From the IMG/VR virus record IMGVR_UViG_3300048838_001273, positions 1 through 64,000 of that record: a stretch of DNA of 64,000 nt. One strand, given 5' to 3'. The notes under the pieces are model-generated. The model saw only the letters and a program-made list of their open reading frames with translations. It had not been told where the DNA came from and did not search any database. The stretch comes from a virus. The position numbers and the translations under genes were made by a program. Below, piece by piece: positions 55,296 through 61,245 of this stretch. Each line of letters opens with the position of its first letter. The stretch's first letter is position 1.

Positions 55296-56393
55296 TTAAA
55301 GACTAAATCTTTCTTGTTTTCTTGCTTTCTTCCTGAGTTCATTTACCTCACGAAGTGCATTTGGGTCGAACCTGTCACGTTTAACAACACTTACTAAGTG
55401 GTTAAATTCGTTTTCAGTAATTACCTGACCAACGTACCCTTCTGTTTTAAGAACAAAAGACTTTGGTGCAGTTCTTGAAGTTGACTGTCCTTCAGTATCT
55501 GCAGTTGCATTGAATGTAAGTTCAAGAAGTTCCTGAATCTTTTCATGCACGCTTGCGGTCATGGTCTGCTTTACTTTCTTCAAAGATTTTTCAAGCAAAT
55601 CAATGATATTATCCTGATGACTTTTCTTCATTTCATTGTATGTTTCGGTGAAAACATTCATTGAAGTCCTATTCTTTAACTCGCTGATAATTGCAAGTGC
55701 ACCGTAACAATCACGAATCATCAAATCCCAAACCTGTTCAGCGTATGTGAATGAAGGAAATTTATCGACTGCGACAATTTCACCATCAATCAACACAACA
55801 ATACCGATAAGATTTTTTGGACGTTCGAAGTGTGCAATGAACTGTTCGAGTTTCTTGTCATACTTATTAAAGTAAACGTCCAAGTAATTACCGGAATTAC
55901 ACTGAGTATCCTGTCCCAACTTCTGAATAGCAGGATAGATGTTACCGTGACCTGATGTTTGACCAACGGCATCGAATAACATTTCACGCATGGTTACTGG
56001 AATCATACGGAATTCCTGAGTACCACGGAAGTGTCCAGTCTGTCCACCCTGTACACAACCAGCATCATGATATGTAGTTTGTGCTTTAGGTTCAACATAA
56101 CCTGCCTTCACCATACCGTGGTTCTGAGCACTCTGTTTTGTCATAACAGCCATCTGAGCAGGAAGAATAACTTCCTTATTCTCTTTATTGGTGAAACTGA
56201 TTTGACCATATGAACTGTTACCAGCAGTCAATGAAGTCAAAGGATTAGCAAAACGCTCGTCCAATGAGAATTCTTTGTCAGTTGTTAAACACACGATTTG
56301 CATGTTCATAATTGACTGAACGATAATGTTACCTTCACTATCCTTGACAGGACGGCAACCTTTAAGTAATTCTGTGAAATCTCTTGTATTCAT
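55296..56393 (-). CDS. ARPP-1/DUF6569-like protein
   Basis: 'N....VILP...AQN......CVQ' and 'F......GIVVLIDGEIVAVDKF.S......W..MI...Y' match the ARPP pattern as recalled; needs HMM confirmation. Confidence 0.6.
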   Translation of the reverse strand: MNTRDFTELLKGCRPVKDSEGNIIVQSIMNMQIVCLTTDKEFSLDERFANPLTSLTAGNSSYGQISFTNKENKEVILPAQMAVMTKQSAQNHGMVKAGYVEPKAQTTYHDAGCVQGGQTGHFRGTQEFRMIPVTMREMLFDAVGQTSGHGNIYPAIQKLGQDTQCNSGNYLDVYFNKYDKKLEQFIAHFERPKNLIGIVVLIDGEIVAVDKFPSFTYAEQVWDLMIRDCYGALAIISELKNRTSMNVFTETYNEMKKSHQDNIIDLLEKSLKKVKQTMTASVHEKIQELLELTFNATADTEGQSTSRTAPKSFVLKTEGYVGQVITENEFNHLVSVVKRDRFDPNALREVNELRKKARKQERFSL

Positions 56394-56404: not shown

Positions 56405-58039
56405 TTAAGCGTTAACACTAATTTTATTTGACCTCTTAACAGGTGCAGCTTCTAAAGCACGAACCTGATTTTCAAGCCACCTTGGGGTATCGATTTCCAA
56501 TAACCTTGCGTTAATCTGTGGCTGAAGTGCAACTGGATTATTGATTGCCATTGTGACAACACCCGAACCCAATTTACGAACATTAGCACCCATTTCAGCA
56601 CTGGTGATTGGTGAAATCTGGAAAATCGGAATGCTCCTACCAGATTCTGCTTGCCAGATTGAAATAACTTCGTTGGTTAGACCATCGTAAGCATTTTCAT
56701 AACCATCAGTTAAGATGAAAATCGCATCATAAGGACGTGCAGTATTTTCTGATTTAAGCAATTCAATGAATGAACTTGCCAAGTCAGTAATTTCGTCACG
56801 AGTCTTAACAAATGTTGCAACATCTGCTGACCTACCCAATACCTTTGCAGTGAAATCAGCAATTGCCCTTGGAGTGTTCTTTGACTCAGCCTTATGACCA
56901 GTCATTGAAGCACTGTCATCGACAACAATACCAATACTCTGGTAGAAGAAACCTGCAATCTTTTTCTTTTCAGCAAGTTTACTAATTGCAACATTCAATT
57001 CAGGTGTGAAACCATTTTCATAACCTGTCTTGTAAAGTGCCATGAAGTCAGTTGCTTTTTCAAGTTCAACATGCTTTTCAACACCCAACTTCGCAGTACT
57101 TTTGGTCTGACGAACCTGCTGGTTAACCGAAGTTACCTTAACATTCTTACGAACCAAAGCCTTTGTTGCTTCTCTCTGAACAGCAGTTGCCCACATACTG
57201 TGGTACTGTGGGTGAGTTACAGAAGAAATTAAACCGAGCAATACTTCTTCCGGTACATTCTGAACATTGGTGATGTCAGTTTTTGCCTTCTGATATTCAT
57301 TTAAAATACTGAATTCACTGTAGTCAATACCAGTATCTCTTTTGAAGATGAATAACAATAACTTAAATGCACGAGTTGTGTCACCGTTAAAGTATTTCAA
57401 AAGCAAATCATTTGCAATACCCATTTCCTTTTCAGTTCCAATAAGAAGGTTGTTACCATAAGTAACGTACTTCTGTGCAATTGAAAGCAGAATTGAAGTT
57501 CTTTTTGTTCCATAGGTGTGCTTCAAAATATTTGCAAGTTTGTTACGGTACTTCAATGAATAGAATTCAAGGTTTGACTGACCCCAAATGAAGCCGAGTA
57601 CAATTTTCCTTGACCTTTCGTTGTTAATCCTTGATTTTTTCAAATCAATGAAAAGACGTAACGCATAGGTAATACCATTATCAGAACCTGCAAGGTTATT
57701 CAACGCACTAAGAACTGCCTTATCAGATAATCCATTATCATACCAGTCAATTGGATTAACTATATTACAAGCACCACCCCTATAGGTTTCTTTGAATTCG
57801 TTAAGCAATACCTCAGACACAAATCTTCCGGTAGCACCTTTTTGGCTTGCAATAATTAATGGAAGTTCCTTTGAAAGTTTATACATACTCCTAATCTGAG
57901 TCTGTAATGCCTTCATCTGTTCATCCTTTTTGTGGTAGTAAGTTGCTGAACTTTTGCTACCTGATGCAATTGTTAAACCTTCAATTAATGACTGCTTAAC
58001 GCTTGTAAGCATCTTCTGTGTTAATACCAATTTTTCCAT
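56405..58039 (-). CDS. Helical + vWA protein, divergent Ro60/TROVE-like candidate
   Basis: 544 aa; long helical N-terminus then vWA MIDAS 'VVDDSASM' and 'FILTDGYEN'; directly downstream of tRNA-like RNAs. Confidence 0.6.
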   Translation of the reverse strand: MEKLVLTQKMLTSVKQSLIEGLTIASGSKSSATYYHKKDEQMKALQTQIRSMYKLSKELPLIIASQKGATGRFVSEVLLNEFKETYRGGACNIVNPIDWYDNGLSDKAVLSALNNLAGSDNGITYALRLFIDLKKSRINNERSRKIVLGFIWGQSNLEFYSLKYRNKLANILKHTYGTKRTSILLSIAQKYVTYGNNLLIGTEKEMGIANDLLLKYFNGDTTRAFKLLLFIFKRDTGIDYSEFSILNEYQKAKTDITNVQNVPEEVLLGLISSVTHPQYHSMWATAVQREATKALVRKNVKVTSVNQQVRQTKSTAKLGVEKHVELEKATDFMALYKTGYENGFTPELNVAISKLAEKKKIAGFFYQSIGIVVDDSASMTGHKAESKNTPRAIADFTAKVLGRSADVATFVKTRDEITDLASSFIELLKSENTARPYDAIFILTDGYENAYDGLTNEVISIWQAESGRSIPIFQISPITSAEMGANVRKLGSGVVTMAINNPVALQPQINARLLEIDTPRWLENQVRALEAAPVKRSNKISVNA

Positions 58040-58068
58040 AATCTATATGTGTTTAAAATTTCGTTCTG

Positions 58069-58099
58069 CAATAATAACAATTATAATTCAATTTACAAA
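58069..58099 (-). promoter_or_regulatory. Bacteroidetes-type promoter (near consensus) for the vWA/ARPP genes
   Basis: TTTG-N19-TATTATTG. Confidence 0.5.
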
Positions 58100-58106
58100 A
58101 AAAATC

Positions 58107-58160
58107 AAAAAAAAAATGGGTGAGATGAAACATTTCTGCTCCAAGTCCCCACCCATTTTT
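58107..58160 (-). terminator. Terminator ending the ncRNA operon
   Basis: AAAAATGGGTG...CACCCATTTTT stem running into a U10 tract on the minus strand. Confidence 0.6.
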
Positions 58161-58193
58161 CATTTTGGAATACTCTTCTTCTAAAAAAAAAGA

Positions 58194-58284
58194 GAAGAAG
58201 TTCGGTTGTATTTTGGTAAGTTTGTCCCGCCTCTCATGAGCGGGATTACATTTTTCAATTTACTGTAAACACAGCCAGTTCTTC
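58194..58284 (-). ncRNA. Y-RNA-like RNA unit A
   Basis: 5' GAAGAA pairs with 3' UUCUUC; GUGUUUACAGUAA motif opposite CUUAC..AAAUAC; inner UCCCGC/GCGGGA hairpin. Confidence 0.65.
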
Positions 58285-58494
58285 CACCAAATTTCTTGTT
58301 TTTGAAAAACTCAGTACTTCTACTTAGAAAACCATTCTTAACCTCTCGTGCGTTTAAAACGCAAATTCAAATGTTAGGTGGTATGCCCCTTTTTTGTTAA
58401 AAAATTCTGATACCAACAGCCAAAAACTTTAAGCAGTGGGGTTTGCTTAATATTAAATAAATCTTATTTGCTAACCGTCACCACTTAATAACTT

Positions 58495-58634
58495 AGGGAA
58501 CATTTTAAAAGTATTTGTTGTTTTTAATGCAAGTTTAACCGACTTGTGACTTAACCGCTTGTCTAATTTTCAATTTTGGCTGAAAATGAAGGATTCGAAC
58601 CTCCGTATTACTGTAAACACTTTTCGTTTTCCCT
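58495..58634 (-). ncRNA. Y-RNA-like RNA unit B: circularly permuted tRNA mimic
   Basis: AGGGAA/UUCCCU ends; motif; T arm GGAGG-UUCGAAU-CCUUC; closed acceptor AUUUUCA-GCCAAAAU-UGAAAAU; D arm GAC-AAGCGGUUAA-GUC; anticodon arm CAAGU-CGGUUAA-ACUUG. Confidence 0.8.
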
Positions 58635-58700
58635 TTGTACTTTAAAGAACGTTACCCCGAAGTTTGTGTTGCCACAGGGACAACGGGGAATTATAATTTT

Positions 58701-58776
58701 AGAAGAAATTCGTTAGTCTTGTGTTGTAAGTGTCTGATTTACCGTCAAATTTACTGTAAAAACTATCAGTTCTTCT
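58701..58776 (-). ncRNA. Y-RNA-like RNA unit C
   Basis: AGAAGAA/UUCUUCU ends; GUUUUUACAGUAA motif opposite CUUAC; inner UUUGA-CGGUAAA-UCAGA hairpin. Confidence 0.7.
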
Positions 58777-58781
58777 TTTTG

Positions 58782-58854
58782 TAGCGGGAGAGGGATTCGA
58801 ACCCCCGACCTCTTGGTTATGAGCCAAGCGAGATACCACTTCTACCATCCCGCA
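58782..58854 (-). tRNA. tRNA-Met(CAT), initiator-like, CCA not encoded
   Basis: Acceptor UGCGGGA/UCCCGCU (1:72 mismatch), anticodon arm CUUGG-CUCAUAA-CCAAG, T arm GGGGG-UUCGAAU-CCCUC. Confidence 0.85.
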
Positions 58855-58892
58855 ATATAAAGGGTTTTTGTGAAAAACCCTTAAAAACTTTG

Positions 58893-59028
58893 TGGGGAGA
58901 ACAGGACTCGAACCTGTAATCTATTGATTTCAACTCAATTGCTTTACCTTTACTGAAAACACTACGAGTTCTCTCTGTGAAGAGAGCAGTGAGATAGTAT
59001 TTCTTGTTTTTGTTTTTGCTATCTCCCC
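58893..59028 (-). ncRNA. tRNA-like RNA unit D with ~65-nt insertion in the D-loop
   Basis: Acceptor GGGGAGA/UCUCCCC; T arm ACAGG-UUCGAGU-CCUGU; anticodon arm AUUGA-GUUGAAA-UCAAU; insertion carries GUGUUUUCAGUAAA. Confidence 0.75.
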
Positions 59029-59074
59029 ATGTAAAAAAATTCATTTCTTAAAAGAACGTTGTCCAAAGACTCTG

Positions 59075-59106
59075 CAAATATAAAACACCTTTTTTTAATA
59101 TGCAAG
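59075..59106 (-). promoter_or_regulatory. Bacteroidetes-type promoter of the RNA operon
   Basis: CTTG-N20-TATATTTG. Confidence 0.75.
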
Positions 59107-59199
59107 TGTTTTTGAAAAAAAATAAAAATATTTTTATAGACCTCTGGAAAAATAAATACTTGATGTTTTACAAAAAGTTACATTTTTTTATAAAAATTT

Positions 59200-61245
59200 T
59201 CACTCTTTTTTTATAACATTCTGTCTTTTACGTAATTGCGCCAACTTTTCTTTTATAAATTTTTCATTATCTTGTGGTGCATCCGGGTCAATTAACCTGT
59301 CATTAACATCTATTTCAGTATTAATATTTTTTTGAACTGGTGGTAAAATTTCTTTTCTTTCTTGAATTTCGGGTAGTGTTTCAACTGATTCTTGCACAAT
59401 ATTAGGTACGTCTTTTAACTCGACTTCCTTTTCAATGACATTAGTATAAAAGGTTTCACCAGTCCAACTATCCATTATAAAATCAGTATCTGTTGTGTTT
59501 ATTCCCTCATTTACTCCCTCACTTACTCCCTCATTTACACCATCACTTACACCATCAGGTTCGTCAGTAGCTTCTTCATCTATTTCTAATATACTTCCAG
59601 TACTCGGCACTACAATATCTTCTACAGTCTCAGGCACATTATTTCCAGTTTTACCGGACATCAAATCTTCTAAACTATCTTTATACGATTGAATTTTACC
59701 GGGTTTTACAGCATCATTTGGAGTATCATTTACGGCATCATCTTTCAGTTTTCCCTCAATTATATTTCCATAATACTCACTAACAGGTATATGAATAGCA
59801 GTACCTGTCTTATTTGTCTTATCTTCCAATTTGTCAATATCTGGAGTATCGTGGTGCTTGATGTTTTTACTCATCTTGCTATACTTATACCTGTCATCTT
59901 CGATTTTGATTTCCATTGTATCATTATTGAAGATACAGTTCGTAAAAGTCTGACCGTCTTGTGCAAACCTTGCTTTAATAATTCTGATATTAGCAAGATG
60001 TGCTTCTTTTTGTTCAGGAGTTTTTGCCACACTCATGAAAAAGTGTGCTTTTTGTACTCTCTTTATATTACCACCAGTTTGATGAACCTCAACGAATTCA
60101 GAATCGAAACCACTACGGTTTGACTGAATTGCAGTCCATGCAGGAATATTCAAATCTCCGGCAAGTGCTTCGAATGATTTAACAATTACAAGTTCAGCTT
60201 CATTTCTATCTGCAGTTTTTTTATGAGATTCCAAACAATCCAGATAATCCAAAACAATTTCATCAAAAACATATCCATATTTTTTCTGATGCCTTGTAAT
60301 CCAGTTACGAATATCCATCATAGTGGTGTTCTCCTGACTAAATTTCTTAATCATGAGTTTACCTCTACCCCTTTTTCTTAATTCATCGGCTTTTTCATGT
60401 GAAAGTTTAGTTACTCTCTCATTTTCATCATCTTCATTTAACTGGCTCAACTTAGATTTTGTCCAAATTGTAAAGTGCTTTCTCTGAATCTGTTCTACAG
60501 TATCTTCGAAGACGATTTGAAGTACGTTTTTACCAACTTCAAGTCCGGTATTTGCTATTTTTGTTAGTAATGTTGTTTTACCAACACCCGATGGTGTTAA
60601 TATTACACCAATTTCTCCCTTACCTAACCCACCACCAGTAAGTACGTCAATAACTTCAACACCAGTGGGTATTGTTTCTCTGAATTCTTTTCTTAATGCC
60701 TTTTCAATGTTATCTGTAACTTCAGTACCATAATCTTCTTCTTCACCAATATGTGAGATTTTCAAGAATTTTTCTTCAATATAACCAAGAGTGTGTTTAT
60801 GTTTTATTTCACCACTTTTGGTTTTAGCTAAAATATATTCACCTATCTTCCTGTATTCCTGTTGTTTAATGAAATTATTGGTTGCCTTTTGTACAACAAT
60901 ACCGTCATAAAGCATTTCTTTATTTAAAACCCTTTCATTCCATAATTCAACACGTTTAATTACAGCAAATAAGGATTCTTCCTCGATTATGTTGTTCGGA
61001 GTTTTATAAGAATTAATTGCAAGATGTATACTTTTATTTTGAAGATTTGGTACTTTTTCATACTCTTTATAATACTCCAAAATGATGAGAAACAGCCTTT
61101 TTAAATAAGGGTCATCAAAGTATTCTACTTCTAAATTTGGTATTGTTTTTTCTGCAAACTCCGGTTCTACAAGCAATTGCCACATTAGGCTTTGTTGAAA
61201 ATCAGGACCGAGATATGCAGAAAATGTATTTGTACTATCACTCAT
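59200..61245 (-). CDS. dnaB: Replicative DnaB/T4 gp41-like helicase with acidic C-terminal extension
   Basis: 'IPTG', 'GGGL', Walker A 'TPSGVGKT', 'VLDYLD', 'WTAIQSNR', 'KARF'. Confidence 0.9.
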   Translation of the reverse strand: MSDSTNTFSAYLGPDFQQSLMWQLLVEPEFAEKTIPNLEVEYFDDPYLKRLFLIILEYYKEYEKVPNLQNKSIHLAINSYKTPNNIIEEESLFAVIKRVELWNERVLNKEMLYDGIVVQKATNNFIKQQEYRKIGEYILAKTKSGEIKHKHTLGYIEEKFLKISHIGEEEDYGTEVTDNIEKALRKEFRETIPTGVEVIDVLTGGGLGKGEIGVILTPSGVGKTTLLTKIANTGLEVGKNVLQIVFEDTVEQIQRKHFTIWTKSKLSQLNEDDENERVTKLSHEKADELRKRGRGKLMIKKFSQENTTMMDIRNWITRHQKKYGYVFDEIVLDYLDCLESHKKTADRNEAELVIVKSFEALAGDLNIPAWTAIQSNRSGFDSEFVEVHQTGGNIKRVQKAHFFMSVAKTPEQKEAHLANIRIIKARFAQDGQTFTNCIFNNDTMEIKIEDDRYKYSKMSKNIKHHDTPDIDKLEDKTNKTGTAIHIPVSEYYGNIIEGKLKDDAVNDTPNDAVKPGKIQSYKDSLEDLMSGKTGNNVPETVEDIVVPSTGSILEIDEEATDEPDGVSDGVNEGVSEGVNEGINTTDTDFIMDSWTGETFYTNVIEKEVELKDVPNIVQESVETLPEIQERKEILPPVQKNINTEIDVNDRLIDPDAPQDNEKFIKEKLAQLRKRQNVIKKE

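What the first reader, a model, noticed from the sequence alone, without database searches (positions are those of the whole stretch)
58530..58776. Anticodon-stem-loop mimics with G at the U33 position: possible decoys for anticodon nucleases
Unit B has CAAGU-CGGUUAA-ACUUG and unit C has UUUGA-CGGUAAA-UCAGA. Both are 5-bp stems with 7-nt C-G-NNN-A-A loops giving GUU (Asn) and GUA (Tyr) triplets, and both have G where tRNAs have an invariant U33. Two different stems with the same deviation suggest selection. Inference: non-decoding baits or inhibitors for tRNA anticodon nucleases, or for enzymes recognising GUN anticodons such as TGT.
Basis: inference. Interest (0 to 1): 0.7.

Follow-up and report, generated by a model that had tools for sequence, protein, structure and literature searches.

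The report
Anticodon-arm mimics on phage Y RNAs
The two hairpins are real, conserved copies of tRNA anticodon arms carried on small RNAs that partner a hidden Ro60-like protein of a huge phage, and across relatives these loops give up the usual U33 whenever the next two bases are G-U, so they never show the U-G-U motif that host tRNA enzymes read.

Summary
Both hairpins exist as described, on the minus strand: CAAGU-CGGUUAA-ACUUG (58530-58546) and UUUGA-CGGUAAA-UCAGA (58733-58749). Both are conserved in relatives.

Unit B is the anticodon arm of a complete tRNA written in rotated order. It hangs by its variable loop on a conserved two-helix handle. Unit C is the same handle carrying only the hairpin.

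The cluster lies directly upstream of a 544-aa protein with no Pfam hit. Its model folds as Ro60 (Z 18.8). These are therefore Y-RNA-like tRNA mimics, not decoding tRNAs.

G33 is not invariant. It is the majority state in unit-C-type RNAs (27/42) and a minority in unit-B-type RNAs (12/69; U33 46/69).

The deviation follows a pattern:
- All 37 distinct loops with G34-U35 lack U33, against 83/120 with U33 among the other loops.
- Canonical Asn, Tyr, His and Lys(UUU) loops are absent.
- A tree-based control agrees in direction but has too few independent pairs.

The decoy or inhibitor reading stays plausible and untested.

Earlier notes of this scan describe the same handle/Ro60-like family on other phage DNA.

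The parts
58530..58546 (-). Unit B anticodon-arm mimic: CAAGU / CGGUUAA / ACUUG. The loop equals a tRNA-Asn loop with U33 changed to G (G33 at 58540).
   Evidence: 4 of 5 stem pairs covary; ARAGORN reads it as anticodon GTT once the RNA is un-permuted
58496..58633 (-). Whole unit B RNA (138 nt). Order: handle P1 (58633-58629 with 58500-58496), P2 (58624-58615 with 58516-58507), ACAGUAA junction (58614-58608), T arm (58604-58588), 7-bp acceptor stem closed by a loop holding G-CCA (58587-58566), D arm (58563-58548), anticodon arm.
   Evidence: RNA-library contigs of 151-155 nt from three studies cover 58485/58490-58626.
58733..58749 (-). Unit C hairpin: UUUGA / CGGUAAA / UCAGA. The loop equals a tRNA-Tyr-type loop with U33 changed to G (G at 58743).
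58701..58776 (-). Whole unit C RNA (76 nt): the handle alone (P1 AGAAGAA/UUCUUCU, P2, ACAGUAA) carrying only the hairpin. It starts 5 nt after tRNA-Met.
   Evidence: 99.3% paired, 4 pairs with compensatory changes
58781..58854 (-). Ordinary tRNA-Met(CAT), lying between the Y-like RNAs
58893..59028 (-). Unit A: normal-order tRNA-like RNA (acceptor GGGGAGA/UCUCCCC, loop GUUGAAA) with the handle, closed by a loop, inserted in the D region
   Evidence: the acceptor stem covaries across 38 homologs
58193..58285 (-). Unit D: the handle carrying a GC-rich hairpin. It is the last RNA of the cluster.
56405..58039 (-). 544-aa divergent Ro60/Rsr homolog (helical ring plus vWA domain with a DxSxS MIDAS motif), directly downstream of the RNA cluster on the same strand
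   Evidence: no Pfam hit; pLDDT 92.6; top 12 Foldseek hits are all Ro60/TROVE; Z 18.8, 404 aa aligned, rmsd 4.0
55296..56393 (-). 365-aa ARPP-1-domain protein, found immediately after the Ro60-like gene in relatives
   Evidence: PF20208, E 1.6e-15; 60 of 72 loci, including every locus of at least 7.2 kb
58634..58652 (-). Promoter-like motif CGUUCUUUAAAGUACAAA just ahead of the GGG start of unit B. A second copy (about 59033-59058) lies ahead of unit A.
   Evidence: This is an inference from conservation; no promoter assay was done.

Best explanation
The two hairpins are anticodon-arm mimics displayed on two Y-RNA-like partner RNAs of a phage Ro60 homolog. Shown: the region 58193-59028 (minus strand) encodes four RNAs that share one handle. 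The handle is helix P1, helix P2 and an invariant ACAGUAA junction. Unit B is a full tRNA in the order T arm, closed acceptor, D arm, anticodon arm. The handle emerges from its variable loop. Unit C is the handle plus the hairpin only. The next gene folds as Ro60. Inferred: the handle docks on the Ro60-like ring, as Y RNA stems do, and the tRNA parts are offered to proteins that read tRNA. The loops do not decode. Position 34 is nearly random among orthologs, U33 is dispensable, and the discriminator base does not follow the 'anticodon'. G33 is one of three non-U states (G, A, C) found whenever positions 34-35 are G-U. The loops therefore copy Asn/Tyr/His-type loops at positions 32 and 34-38 but never show U33-G34-U35. 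My preferred mechanism, which is inference, is that the particle shows near-cognate anticodon loops that host enzymes can bind but cannot process. UGU is the minimal TGT signal, and colicin-E5-type nucleases need a pyrimidine at position 33. The loops would then act as protected baits or competitive inhibitors in the conflict over tRNA cleavage or modification.
For: Structure of unit B: 99.2% paired, 18/35 pairs with compensatory changes, 0/500 shuffles reach this. The acceptor stem covaries in 45 homologs. The tRNA core bases are invariant: U8, A14, G18, G19, A21, C48 and GGUUCRANUCC. An in-silico un-permuted unit B is called tRNA-Asn(GTT), 76 nt, by ARAGORN at default settings. Ro60 identity of the neighbouring gene: AlphaFold model pLDDT 92.6; the top 12 Foldseek hits are all Ro60/Rsr/TROVE; Z 18.8 over 404 residues. 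Known Y RNAs lie within 4 kb of Ro60 on the same strand and have the order Ro stem, T arm, closed acceptor stem, D arm. M. smegmatis YrlA is cut by RNase P and gains CCA (PMC4201824). Loop statistics: position 33 in 157 distinct units is U 83, G 46, A 14, C 14. Of 37 G34-U35 loops, none has U33, against 83/120 among the rest (Fisher 1.4e-15, not corrected for relatedness). The loops CUGUUAA, CUGUAAA, CUGUGAA and CUUUUAA occur 0 times in 115 type a and b units, and the type c loops listed contain none either. Three handle-free tRNA-like genes of relatives with GUN anticodons also have C33. Enzyme rules: E5 needs YGU and TGT needs UGU (PMC1635277). Short contigs from RNA libraries of three studies span unit B with no listed difference in the arm.
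Against: No binding, cleavage or modification data exist for any part of this system. The handle lacks the conserved GNCGAA Ro-binding motif of YrlA. No Rfam Y RNA family matches. The UGU-avoidance statistic counts related sequences. On well-supported tree branches there are only 4 independent pairs (3.4 in the predicted direction, 0 opposite, sign test p 0.125-0.5). C33-G34-U35 loops (7 of 37) would still satisfy the YGU rule of colicin E5, so only the TGT rule fits all cases. U33 is the commonest state in unit B's own orthologs. RNA-library contigs do not prove transcription. No TGT gene was found in five complete relatives, and RtcB was found in one of them, so any enzyme partner would be the host's and the host is unknown.
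Confidence: 0.55

Rival explanations
1. The hairpin is structural filler. It only stabilises the tRNA-like fold or protects the Y-like RNA from nucleases. Loop positions 33-36 drift neutrally. G33 and the absence of UGU reflect shared ancestry and few independent events.
For: Chen et al. proposed that the tRNA fold may simply protect Y RNAs. Positions 33-36 have high entropy. The tree-based test lacks power. Some unit-C-position RNAs in relatives carry quite different inserts.
Against: The 7-nt loop, C32, A37 and A38 are kept. Position 33 takes G, A and C repeatedly in GU loops but never U, although U is the commonest base there otherwise. The same rule holds in three RNA classes and in handle-free tRNA-like genes. 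Units with identical D arm and stem carry different loops in which positions 33 and 34 changed together.
Confidence: 0.22
2. The loop is a second docking site for the Ro60-like protein or its ARPP-1 partner. CAGUAAA, CGGUAAA and CAGUUAA resemble the invariant ACAGUAA of the handle, so the non-U base before GU would be part of a C-R-G-U-A-A protein-binding word and not tRNA mimicry.
For: The handle junction C-A-G-U-A-A is invariant. Loops CAGUAAA and CAGUUAA occur in all three RNA classes. 31 of 36 non-U33 loops of types a and b contain GU at 34-35 or 33-34. The ARPP-1 gene always accompanies the Ro60-like gene.
Against: Most unit-B orthologs have CUCUUAA or CUAUUAA, which lack this word. The arm has exact tRNA geometry and sits in a full tRNA body. 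C33 variants exist.
Confidence: 0.13
3. They are working tRNAs. Unit B would be cut in the acceptor loop by RNase P, trimmed to its encoded CCA, and used as a two-piece tRNA-Asn. G33 would make it resistant to host anticodon nucleases, as proposed for phage tRNAs with anticodon-loop mutations.
For: Unit B has a 7-bp acceptor stem, a G73-CCA in the acceptor loop in most homologs, a full cloverleaf core, and G73 plus GUU, which fit Asn identity (my own knowledge). M. smegmatis YrlA is cut by RNase P and gains CCA. The concept of nuclease-insensitive phage tRNAs is in PMC10264068.
Against: The 'anticodon' differs among near-identical orthologs and includes AUU and AUG, which are not used by normal tRNAs. 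The discriminator does not track the anticodon. Several homologs close the acceptor stem with a 5-nt loop and have no CCA. Non-U33 is rare in decoding tRNAs (my own knowledge). Unit C has no acceptor, D or T arm.
Confidence: 0.05

Closest known systems
YrlA-type Y RNAs bound by bacterial and phage Ro60/Rsr (Chen et al. 2014, PMC4201824; structure bioRxiv 10.1101/312249)
   Same: Encoded just upstream of a Ro60 homolog on the same strand, several per locus and mixed with a tRNA gene. The 5' and 3' ends pair into a stem. The order is T arm, closed acceptor stem, D arm, with the tRNA core bases kept. A 7-bp acceptor stem with CCA matches M. smegmatis YrlA.
   Different: YrlA has no anticodon loop, and its Ro-binding stem takes the place of the anticodon stem. 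Here the anticodon arm is complete and the stem leaves from the variable loop (unit B) or the D region (unit A). The handle sequence (GUGUUU-ACAGUAA ... AAAUAC) is not the GNCGAA motif. No Rfam Y RNA family matches. The protein is too divergent for Pfam TROVE.
D. radiodurans Yrn1/Yrn2 and Thermus phage phiLo Yrl1/Yrl2 with their Ro60 (PMC4201824; PMC12135203)
   Same: Several Y RNAs lie upstream of Ro60 and are co-transcribed with a tRNA. Yrn1 has an anticodon-like arm with a 5-bp stem. The phage Ro60 binds phage-encoded Y-like RNAs and can engage host PNPase.
   Different: The Yrn1 loop has 6 nt. The phiLo RNAs were found through a CGAA bulge and are not described as tRNA-shaped.
Phage tRNAs with anticodon-loop changes predicted to resist host anticodon nucleases (van den Berg et al. 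2023, PMC10264068)
   Same: Phage-encoded tRNA-shaped RNAs whose anticodon loops differ from canonical loops at or next to enzyme recognition sites.
   Different: Those are decoding tRNAs that replace cleaved host tRNAs. The RNAs here are permuted or reduced, carry a Ro60-type handle, and their 'anticodons' are not conserved.
Circularly permuted tRNA genes of Cyanidioschyzon merolae (from my own knowledge)
   Same: The 3' half of the tRNA is encoded ahead of the 5' half.
   Different: Those are matured through a circular intermediate into normal tRNAs. Here the acceptor stem is closed by a loop and the ends pair into a conserved handle, so no re-joining is needed or indicated.

Membership tests
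YrlA-type Y RNA (Ro60 partner RNA) | Encoded within about 4 kb of a Ro60/TROVE gene on the same strand | tested here: met
   The RNAs at 58193-59028 (-) lie 154-989 nt upstream of the 544-aa gene at 56405-58039 (-), whose model matches Ro60 at Z 18.8.
YrlA-type Y RNA (Ro60 partner RNA) | The 5' and 3' ends pair into a stem that carries the Ro-binding site | tested here: met
   P1 and P2 are 98-100% paired. P2 has compensatory changes in unit B and unit C. P1 differs between RNA classes while staying paired.
YrlA-type Y RNA (Ro60 partner RNA) | Conserved GNCGAA(N)G motif near the 5' end | tested here: not met
   The window has AACGAAAAG, but relatives have AACUGAAAG, AACUUAAAG or AACGUAAAG. CGAA is not conserved. 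The conserved words are GUGUUU-ACAGUAA and AAAUAC.
YrlA-type Y RNA (Ro60 partner RNA) | tRNA-like domain in the order T arm, closed acceptor stem, D arm, with tRNA core bases | tested here: met
YrlA-type Y RNA (Ro60 partner RNA) | Match to an Rfam Y RNA covariance model | tested here: not met
   No Y RNA family appears among the matches at E up to 10 on 57900-59300. Only tRNA reaches its threshold.
YrlA-type Y RNA (Ro60 partner RNA) | Physical binding to Ro60 | not testable with these tools
   Needs EMSA or co-immunoprecipitation.
Decoding tRNA | Contiguous cloverleaf with free acceptor ends | tested here: not met
   Unit B is permuted with a closed acceptor stem. ARAGORN finds it only after in-silico rotation. 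Unit C has only the anticodon-like arm.
Decoding tRNA | U33, and an anticodon conserved among orthologs | tested here: not met
   G33 in the window. Among 42 unit-B homologs position 33 is U29 G7 A5 C1, and position 34 has 1.96 bits of entropy.
Ro60/Rsr (TROVE plus vWA) protein | Ring of helical repeats followed by a vWA domain with a MIDAS motif, about 500-540 aa | tested here: met
   Model pLDDT 92.6. Full-length matches to X. laevis, human, D. radiodurans and phage phiLo Ro60. D374, S376, S378 and D445-G446 are conserved.
Ro60/Rsr (TROVE plus vWA) protein | Pfam TROVE (PF05731) sequence match | tested here: not met
   No Pfam hit at E up to 10. No TROVE match in the record. A profile search against PDB sequences finds only weak vWA hits. 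An ESM Atlas feature search lists TROVE clusters at 0.94, which is a lead only.
Substrate of bacterial tRNA-guanine transglycosylase (TGT) | U33-G34-U35 in a 7-nt anticodon loop | tested here: not met
   The window loops are CGGUUAA and CGGUAAA. None of 37 G34-U35 loops in the family has U33. The rule is as cited in PMC1635277.
Substrate of colicin-E5-type anticodon nuclease | Y33-G34-U35-N36 | tested here: not met
   The window loops have G33, and U33 to G or A abolishes cleavage of minihelices (PMC1635277). Seven relatives have C33-G34-U35, which would meet the rule.

The most novel reading that the evidence does not exclude
A phage Ro60 particle acts as a display rack for enzyme-proof anticodon loops. 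It carries near-cognate copies of Asn, Tyr, His and Lys tRNA loops, each altered at the one position that host anticodon nucleases or TGT require. These would bind and block the enzymes as uncleavable substrate analogues. That would be an RNA-based counter-defence class distinct from replacement tRNAs and from RNA repair.
Probability: 0.2. Interest if true: 0.85.

Novelty: new variant of a known kind. Interest (0 to 1): 0.62.

Why it matters
The function of the tRNA-like part of bacterial and phage Y RNAs has been open since it was described in 2014. This family carries a complete anticodon arm, which published YrlA RNAs are said to lack. The arm's loop changes quickly among close relatives but appears to avoid the exact word read by queuosine insertion and by GU-specific anticodon nucleases. 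That gives a concrete, cheap test with minihelix pairs that differ only at position 33. It also links Ro60 particles to the conflict over tRNA cleavage, which is already suggested by the rsr-yrlBA-rtcBA operon being switched on by broken tRNAs (PMC7790460). Finally, it shows that a widespread jumbo-phage protein with no Pfam domain is a Ro60 homolog.

Tried and rejected
- ARAGORN, with introns allowed and at lowered thresholds, and the tmRNA search gave only tRNA-Met plus low-score artefacts.
- Rfam at gathering and at E up to 10 gave only tRNA, one full match and one partial.
- I considered introns, a permuted tRNA matured through a circular intermediate, a hammerhead-like core (CUGAUAG...GAA) and a palindromic DNA operator (UUUACAGUAAA). 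I dropped them because the variable bases covary as helix P2 and the ends pair into P1.
- BLAST of the region against phage records found only tRNA-Met.
- The single-sequence AlphaFold model was useless, with pLDDT 37.6.
- phmmer and a profile search against PDB sequences did not find Ro60.
- Pfam on ten distant homologs gave nothing except weak vWA hits.
- The loose pattern scan of viral contigs returned mostly chance hits, and I did not use it.
- The sequencing-run search found only small shares of the region. Laid contigs cannot show ends, strand or expression level.
- The simple terminator scan found none. The long-loop hairpin with a run of T at about 58110-58160 is outside its rules.
- The tree-based independent-pairs test gave too few supported pairs to reach significance.
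- No TGT gene was found in five complete relatives, and RtcB was found in one of the five.

Full report
**What is in the sequence**

The finding's strand is the minus strand. Read that way, 58546-58530 is CAAGT-CGGTTAA-ACTTG. 58749-58733 is TTTGA-CGGTAAA-TCAGA. Each has a 5-bp stem and a 7-nt loop with G at the second loop position.

The only ordinary tRNA in the 64-kb window is tRNA-Met at 58781-58854. The non-coding stretch 58100-59100 lies between a DnaB-like helicase gene and a 544-aa ORF. All are on the minus strand.

**The RNAs**

The word TTTWCAGTAA occurs seven times in the window against 1.1 expected. Four of these lie in this 1-kb stretch on the minus strand.

I fetched 72 related loci from IMG/VR through the 544-aa protein. 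Their contigs reach 365 kb, so this is a jumbo-phage clade. In all of them the word is part of a longer conserved unit, RAAC-N5-GUK-UUUWCAGUAA. Three classes of RNA share it:

1. **Type a (unit A, 59028-58893).** A normal-order tRNA-like RNA. Its acceptor stem covaries across 38 homologs (GGGGAGA/UCUCCCC, GGGCGAG/CUCGCCC, GAGAGGG/CCCUCUC and others). The shared unit is inserted in the D region.
2. **Type b (unit B, 58633-58496).** The order is leader, T arm, acceptor 3' strand, G-CCA, short linker, acceptor 5' strand, UA, D arm, anticodon arm, trailer.
3. **Type c (unit C, 58776-58701, and unit D, 58285-58193).** The shared unit closes on itself around a small insert.

In unit B the leader pairs with the trailer in two helices: P1 is GGGAA/UUCCC and P2 is AAAAGUGUUU/AAAUACUUUU.

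Covariation counts:
- On a 24-sequence alignment of unit B, the full structure is 99.2% paired. 18 of 35 pairs show compensatory changes and 0 of 500 shuffles reach this. Slid controls pair at 37-54%.
- The anticodon-like stem has compensatory changes in 4 of its 5 pairs.
- The tRNA core bases are invariant or nearly so: U8, A14, G18, G19, A21, C48 and the T-loop GGUUCRANUCC.
- When the pieces are rotated back in a script, ARAGORN calls a 76-nt tRNA-Asn(GTT) at default settings.
- Unit C is 99.3% paired in 21 homologs, with four compensatory pairs. Its hairpin is 98% paired but has only one compensatory pair, so its support is mostly conservation.

**The neighbouring protein**

The 544-aa ORF has no Pfam or PHROG hit, even at E 10. 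Close homologs are all unnamed.

An exhaustive HMMER search gave 306 relatives. An alignment of 103 of them shows a conserved DxSxS...DG pattern. With that alignment AlphaFold gave pLDDT 92.6.

The top twelve Foldseek hits in the PDB are all Ro60, Rsr or TROVE, including the Ro60 of Thermus phage phiLo. VIA-align gives Z 18.8 over 404 residues at rmsd 4.0 for Xenopus Ro60. The vWA-only matches follow at Z 12 or below. The protein is therefore a divergent Ro60.

The lead came from an earlier first-reader note on this window. I tested it as described here.

A 365-aa ARPP-1-domain gene follows the Ro60-like gene. It is present in 60 of 72 loci, including every locus of at least 7.2 kb.

**Comparison with known Y RNAs**

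Chen et al. (PMC4201824) found that:
- bacterial and phage YrlA RNAs lie within 4 kb of Ro60 on the same strand;
- they have a stem formed by the two ends, then the order V, T, closed acceptor stem, D;
- they keep the tRNA tertiary bases;
- in M. smegmatis, which has a 7-bp acceptor stem, YrlA is cut by RNase P and receives CCA;
- D. radiodurans transcribes Yrn2, tRNA-Asp and Yrn1 together.

All of this matches the present cluster.

The differences are clear:
- YrlA "lacks the anticodon loop", and its Ro-binding stem continues the anticodon stem. Here the anticodon arm is complete and the handle leaves from the variable loop.
- The GNCGAA motif is not conserved here.
- No Rfam Y RNA family matches.

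Some jumbo phages are already known to carry a TROVE protein with a tRNA-like partner (PMC7824862). The phiLo Ro60 binds two phage Y-like RNAs (PMC12135203).

**The loops**

I added 73 metagenome loci found with the unit-B leader pattern. From all clade loci I parsed 157 distinct units: 46 type a, 69 type b and 42 type c. The parser looked for 5-bp/7-nt arms, so loop length is not an independent result.

In 42 unit-B homologs:
- C32 occurs in 33, A37 in 36 and A38 in 40.
- Position 33 is U29 G7 A5 C1.
- Position 34 has 1.96 bits of entropy.
- Units with identical D arm and stem carry CUCUUAA, CCGUUAA or CUAUUAA.

So G33 is not a fixed feature of unit B. In unit-C-type RNAs it is the majority state (27/42), and CGGUAAA is the commonest loop (16).

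The deviation from U33 follows a pattern:
- All 37 loops with G34-U35 have G (21), A (9) or C (7) at position 33 and never U.
- Of the other 120 loops, 83 have U33 (Fisher 1.4e-15).
- Of 36 non-U33 loops in types a and b, 31 contain GU at 34-35 or 33-34.
- The canonical loops CUGUUAA, CUGUAAA, CUGUGAA and CUUUUAA occur 0 times in the 115 type a and b units. The type c loops listed contain none of them either. Their one-base neighbours are common.
- Three handle-free cloverleaf genes of relatives with GUC, GUA and GUU anticodons also have C33.

The caveat is relatedness. On a tree of unit-B bodies, the GU state changes 12 times on the best tree. Only four independent pairs lie on supported branches. 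They go 3.4 to 0 in the predicted direction, which cannot reach significance.

**What the rule could mean**

E. coli TGT needs UGU in the anticodon loop. Colicin E5 needs YGU, and changing U33 to A or G abolishes cleavage while C keeps it (PMC1635277).

Avoidance of U before GU therefore fits escape from TGT in all cases. It fits escape from E5-type nucleases for the G and A variants only.

The five complete relatives carry no TGT gene, and one of them carries RtcB. Any enzyme partner would therefore be the host's.

In Salmonella, Ro60, the Y RNAs and the RtcB ligase share an operon that is induced by tRNAs broken in the anticodon loop (PMC7790460). Phage tRNAs with altered anticodon loops have been proposed to resist host tRNases (PMC10264068). 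These give a context, not proof.

**Expression**

In RNA libraries of three studies, contigs of 151-155 nt cover 58485/58490-58626 at about 95% identity. No difference is listed within the anticodon arm. Shorter pieces cover units A and D and a conserved element at 58347-58430. Contigs cannot show ends or strand, and DNA carry-over is possible, so this is only a weak hint.

**Verdict**

The non-decoding mimic reading is supported. The RNAs are best filed as a new variant of Ro60-partner Y RNAs.

The idea that G33 is a selected, shared deviation is refined. What appears to be excluded is U33 before G34-U35, not that G is required.

A decoy or inhibitor role for anticodon nucleases or TGT remains an inference. 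I give it roughly one chance in five in its strong form.

Earlier notes of this scan describe the same handle/Ro60-like family, with displayed anticodon arms, on other phage genomes. I did not see the U33/GU coupling in the notes shown to me.

Noticed in passing
window 58347-58430 (-): A conserved non-coding element lies between units B and D (GGCUGUUGGUAUCAGA ... GGGGCAUACCACCUAACAUUUGA, with UGGUAU/AUACCA able to pair). It recurs after unit B in many relatives and is covered by RNA-library contigs of two studies.
   Followed up: partly
window 58655-58690 (-): A conserved hairpin-like element (UUCCCCGUUGUCCCUGUGGCAAC...CGGGG) lies between unit C and the promoter-like motif of unit B. Variants occur in several relatives (for example in L001, L013, L016 and L026).
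   Followed up: no
window 58634-58652 and about 59033-59058 (-): The motif CGUUCUUUAAA(G/A)UA lies a few bases ahead of the GGG that starts unit B and unit A. It is conserved in relatives and occurs only twice in the window. It is probably a phage promoter.
   Followed up: partly
L050:2331-2403, L250:446-521, L264:510-585: Relatives carry handle-free cloverleaf genes called tRNA-Asn(GTT), tRNA-Tyr(GTA) with a short variable loop and encoded CCA, and tRNA-Asp(GTC). All have C33-G34-U35 and AU-rich acceptor stems.
   Followed up: partly
clade loci L001-L072 and L193-L265: ARAGORN calls seven distinct 'tRNA-SeC' genes with anticodon TCA (loops CUUCAAA, AUUCAAA, CUUCAGA) and two 'tRNA-Stop' genes (loops CUUUAAC, CUUUAAA). 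They could be suppressor tRNAs or further mimics.
   Followed up: no
window 55296-56393 (-): An ARPP-1-domain protein (PF20208) follows the Ro60-like gene in 60 of 72 related loci, including every locus of at least 7.2 kb. The paper I read on ARPP (PMC9503650) does not list this pairing among its contexts.
   Followed up: partly
G004:C1:348880-349941 (complete 357-kb relative): RtcB RNA ligase is present in only one of five complete relatives. No TGT-family gene is present in any of them.
   Followed up: partly
window 58110-58160 (-): A hairpin GGGUG...CACCC followed by ten U closes the RNA cluster. The simple terminator scan missed it because its loop is long.
   Followed up: no
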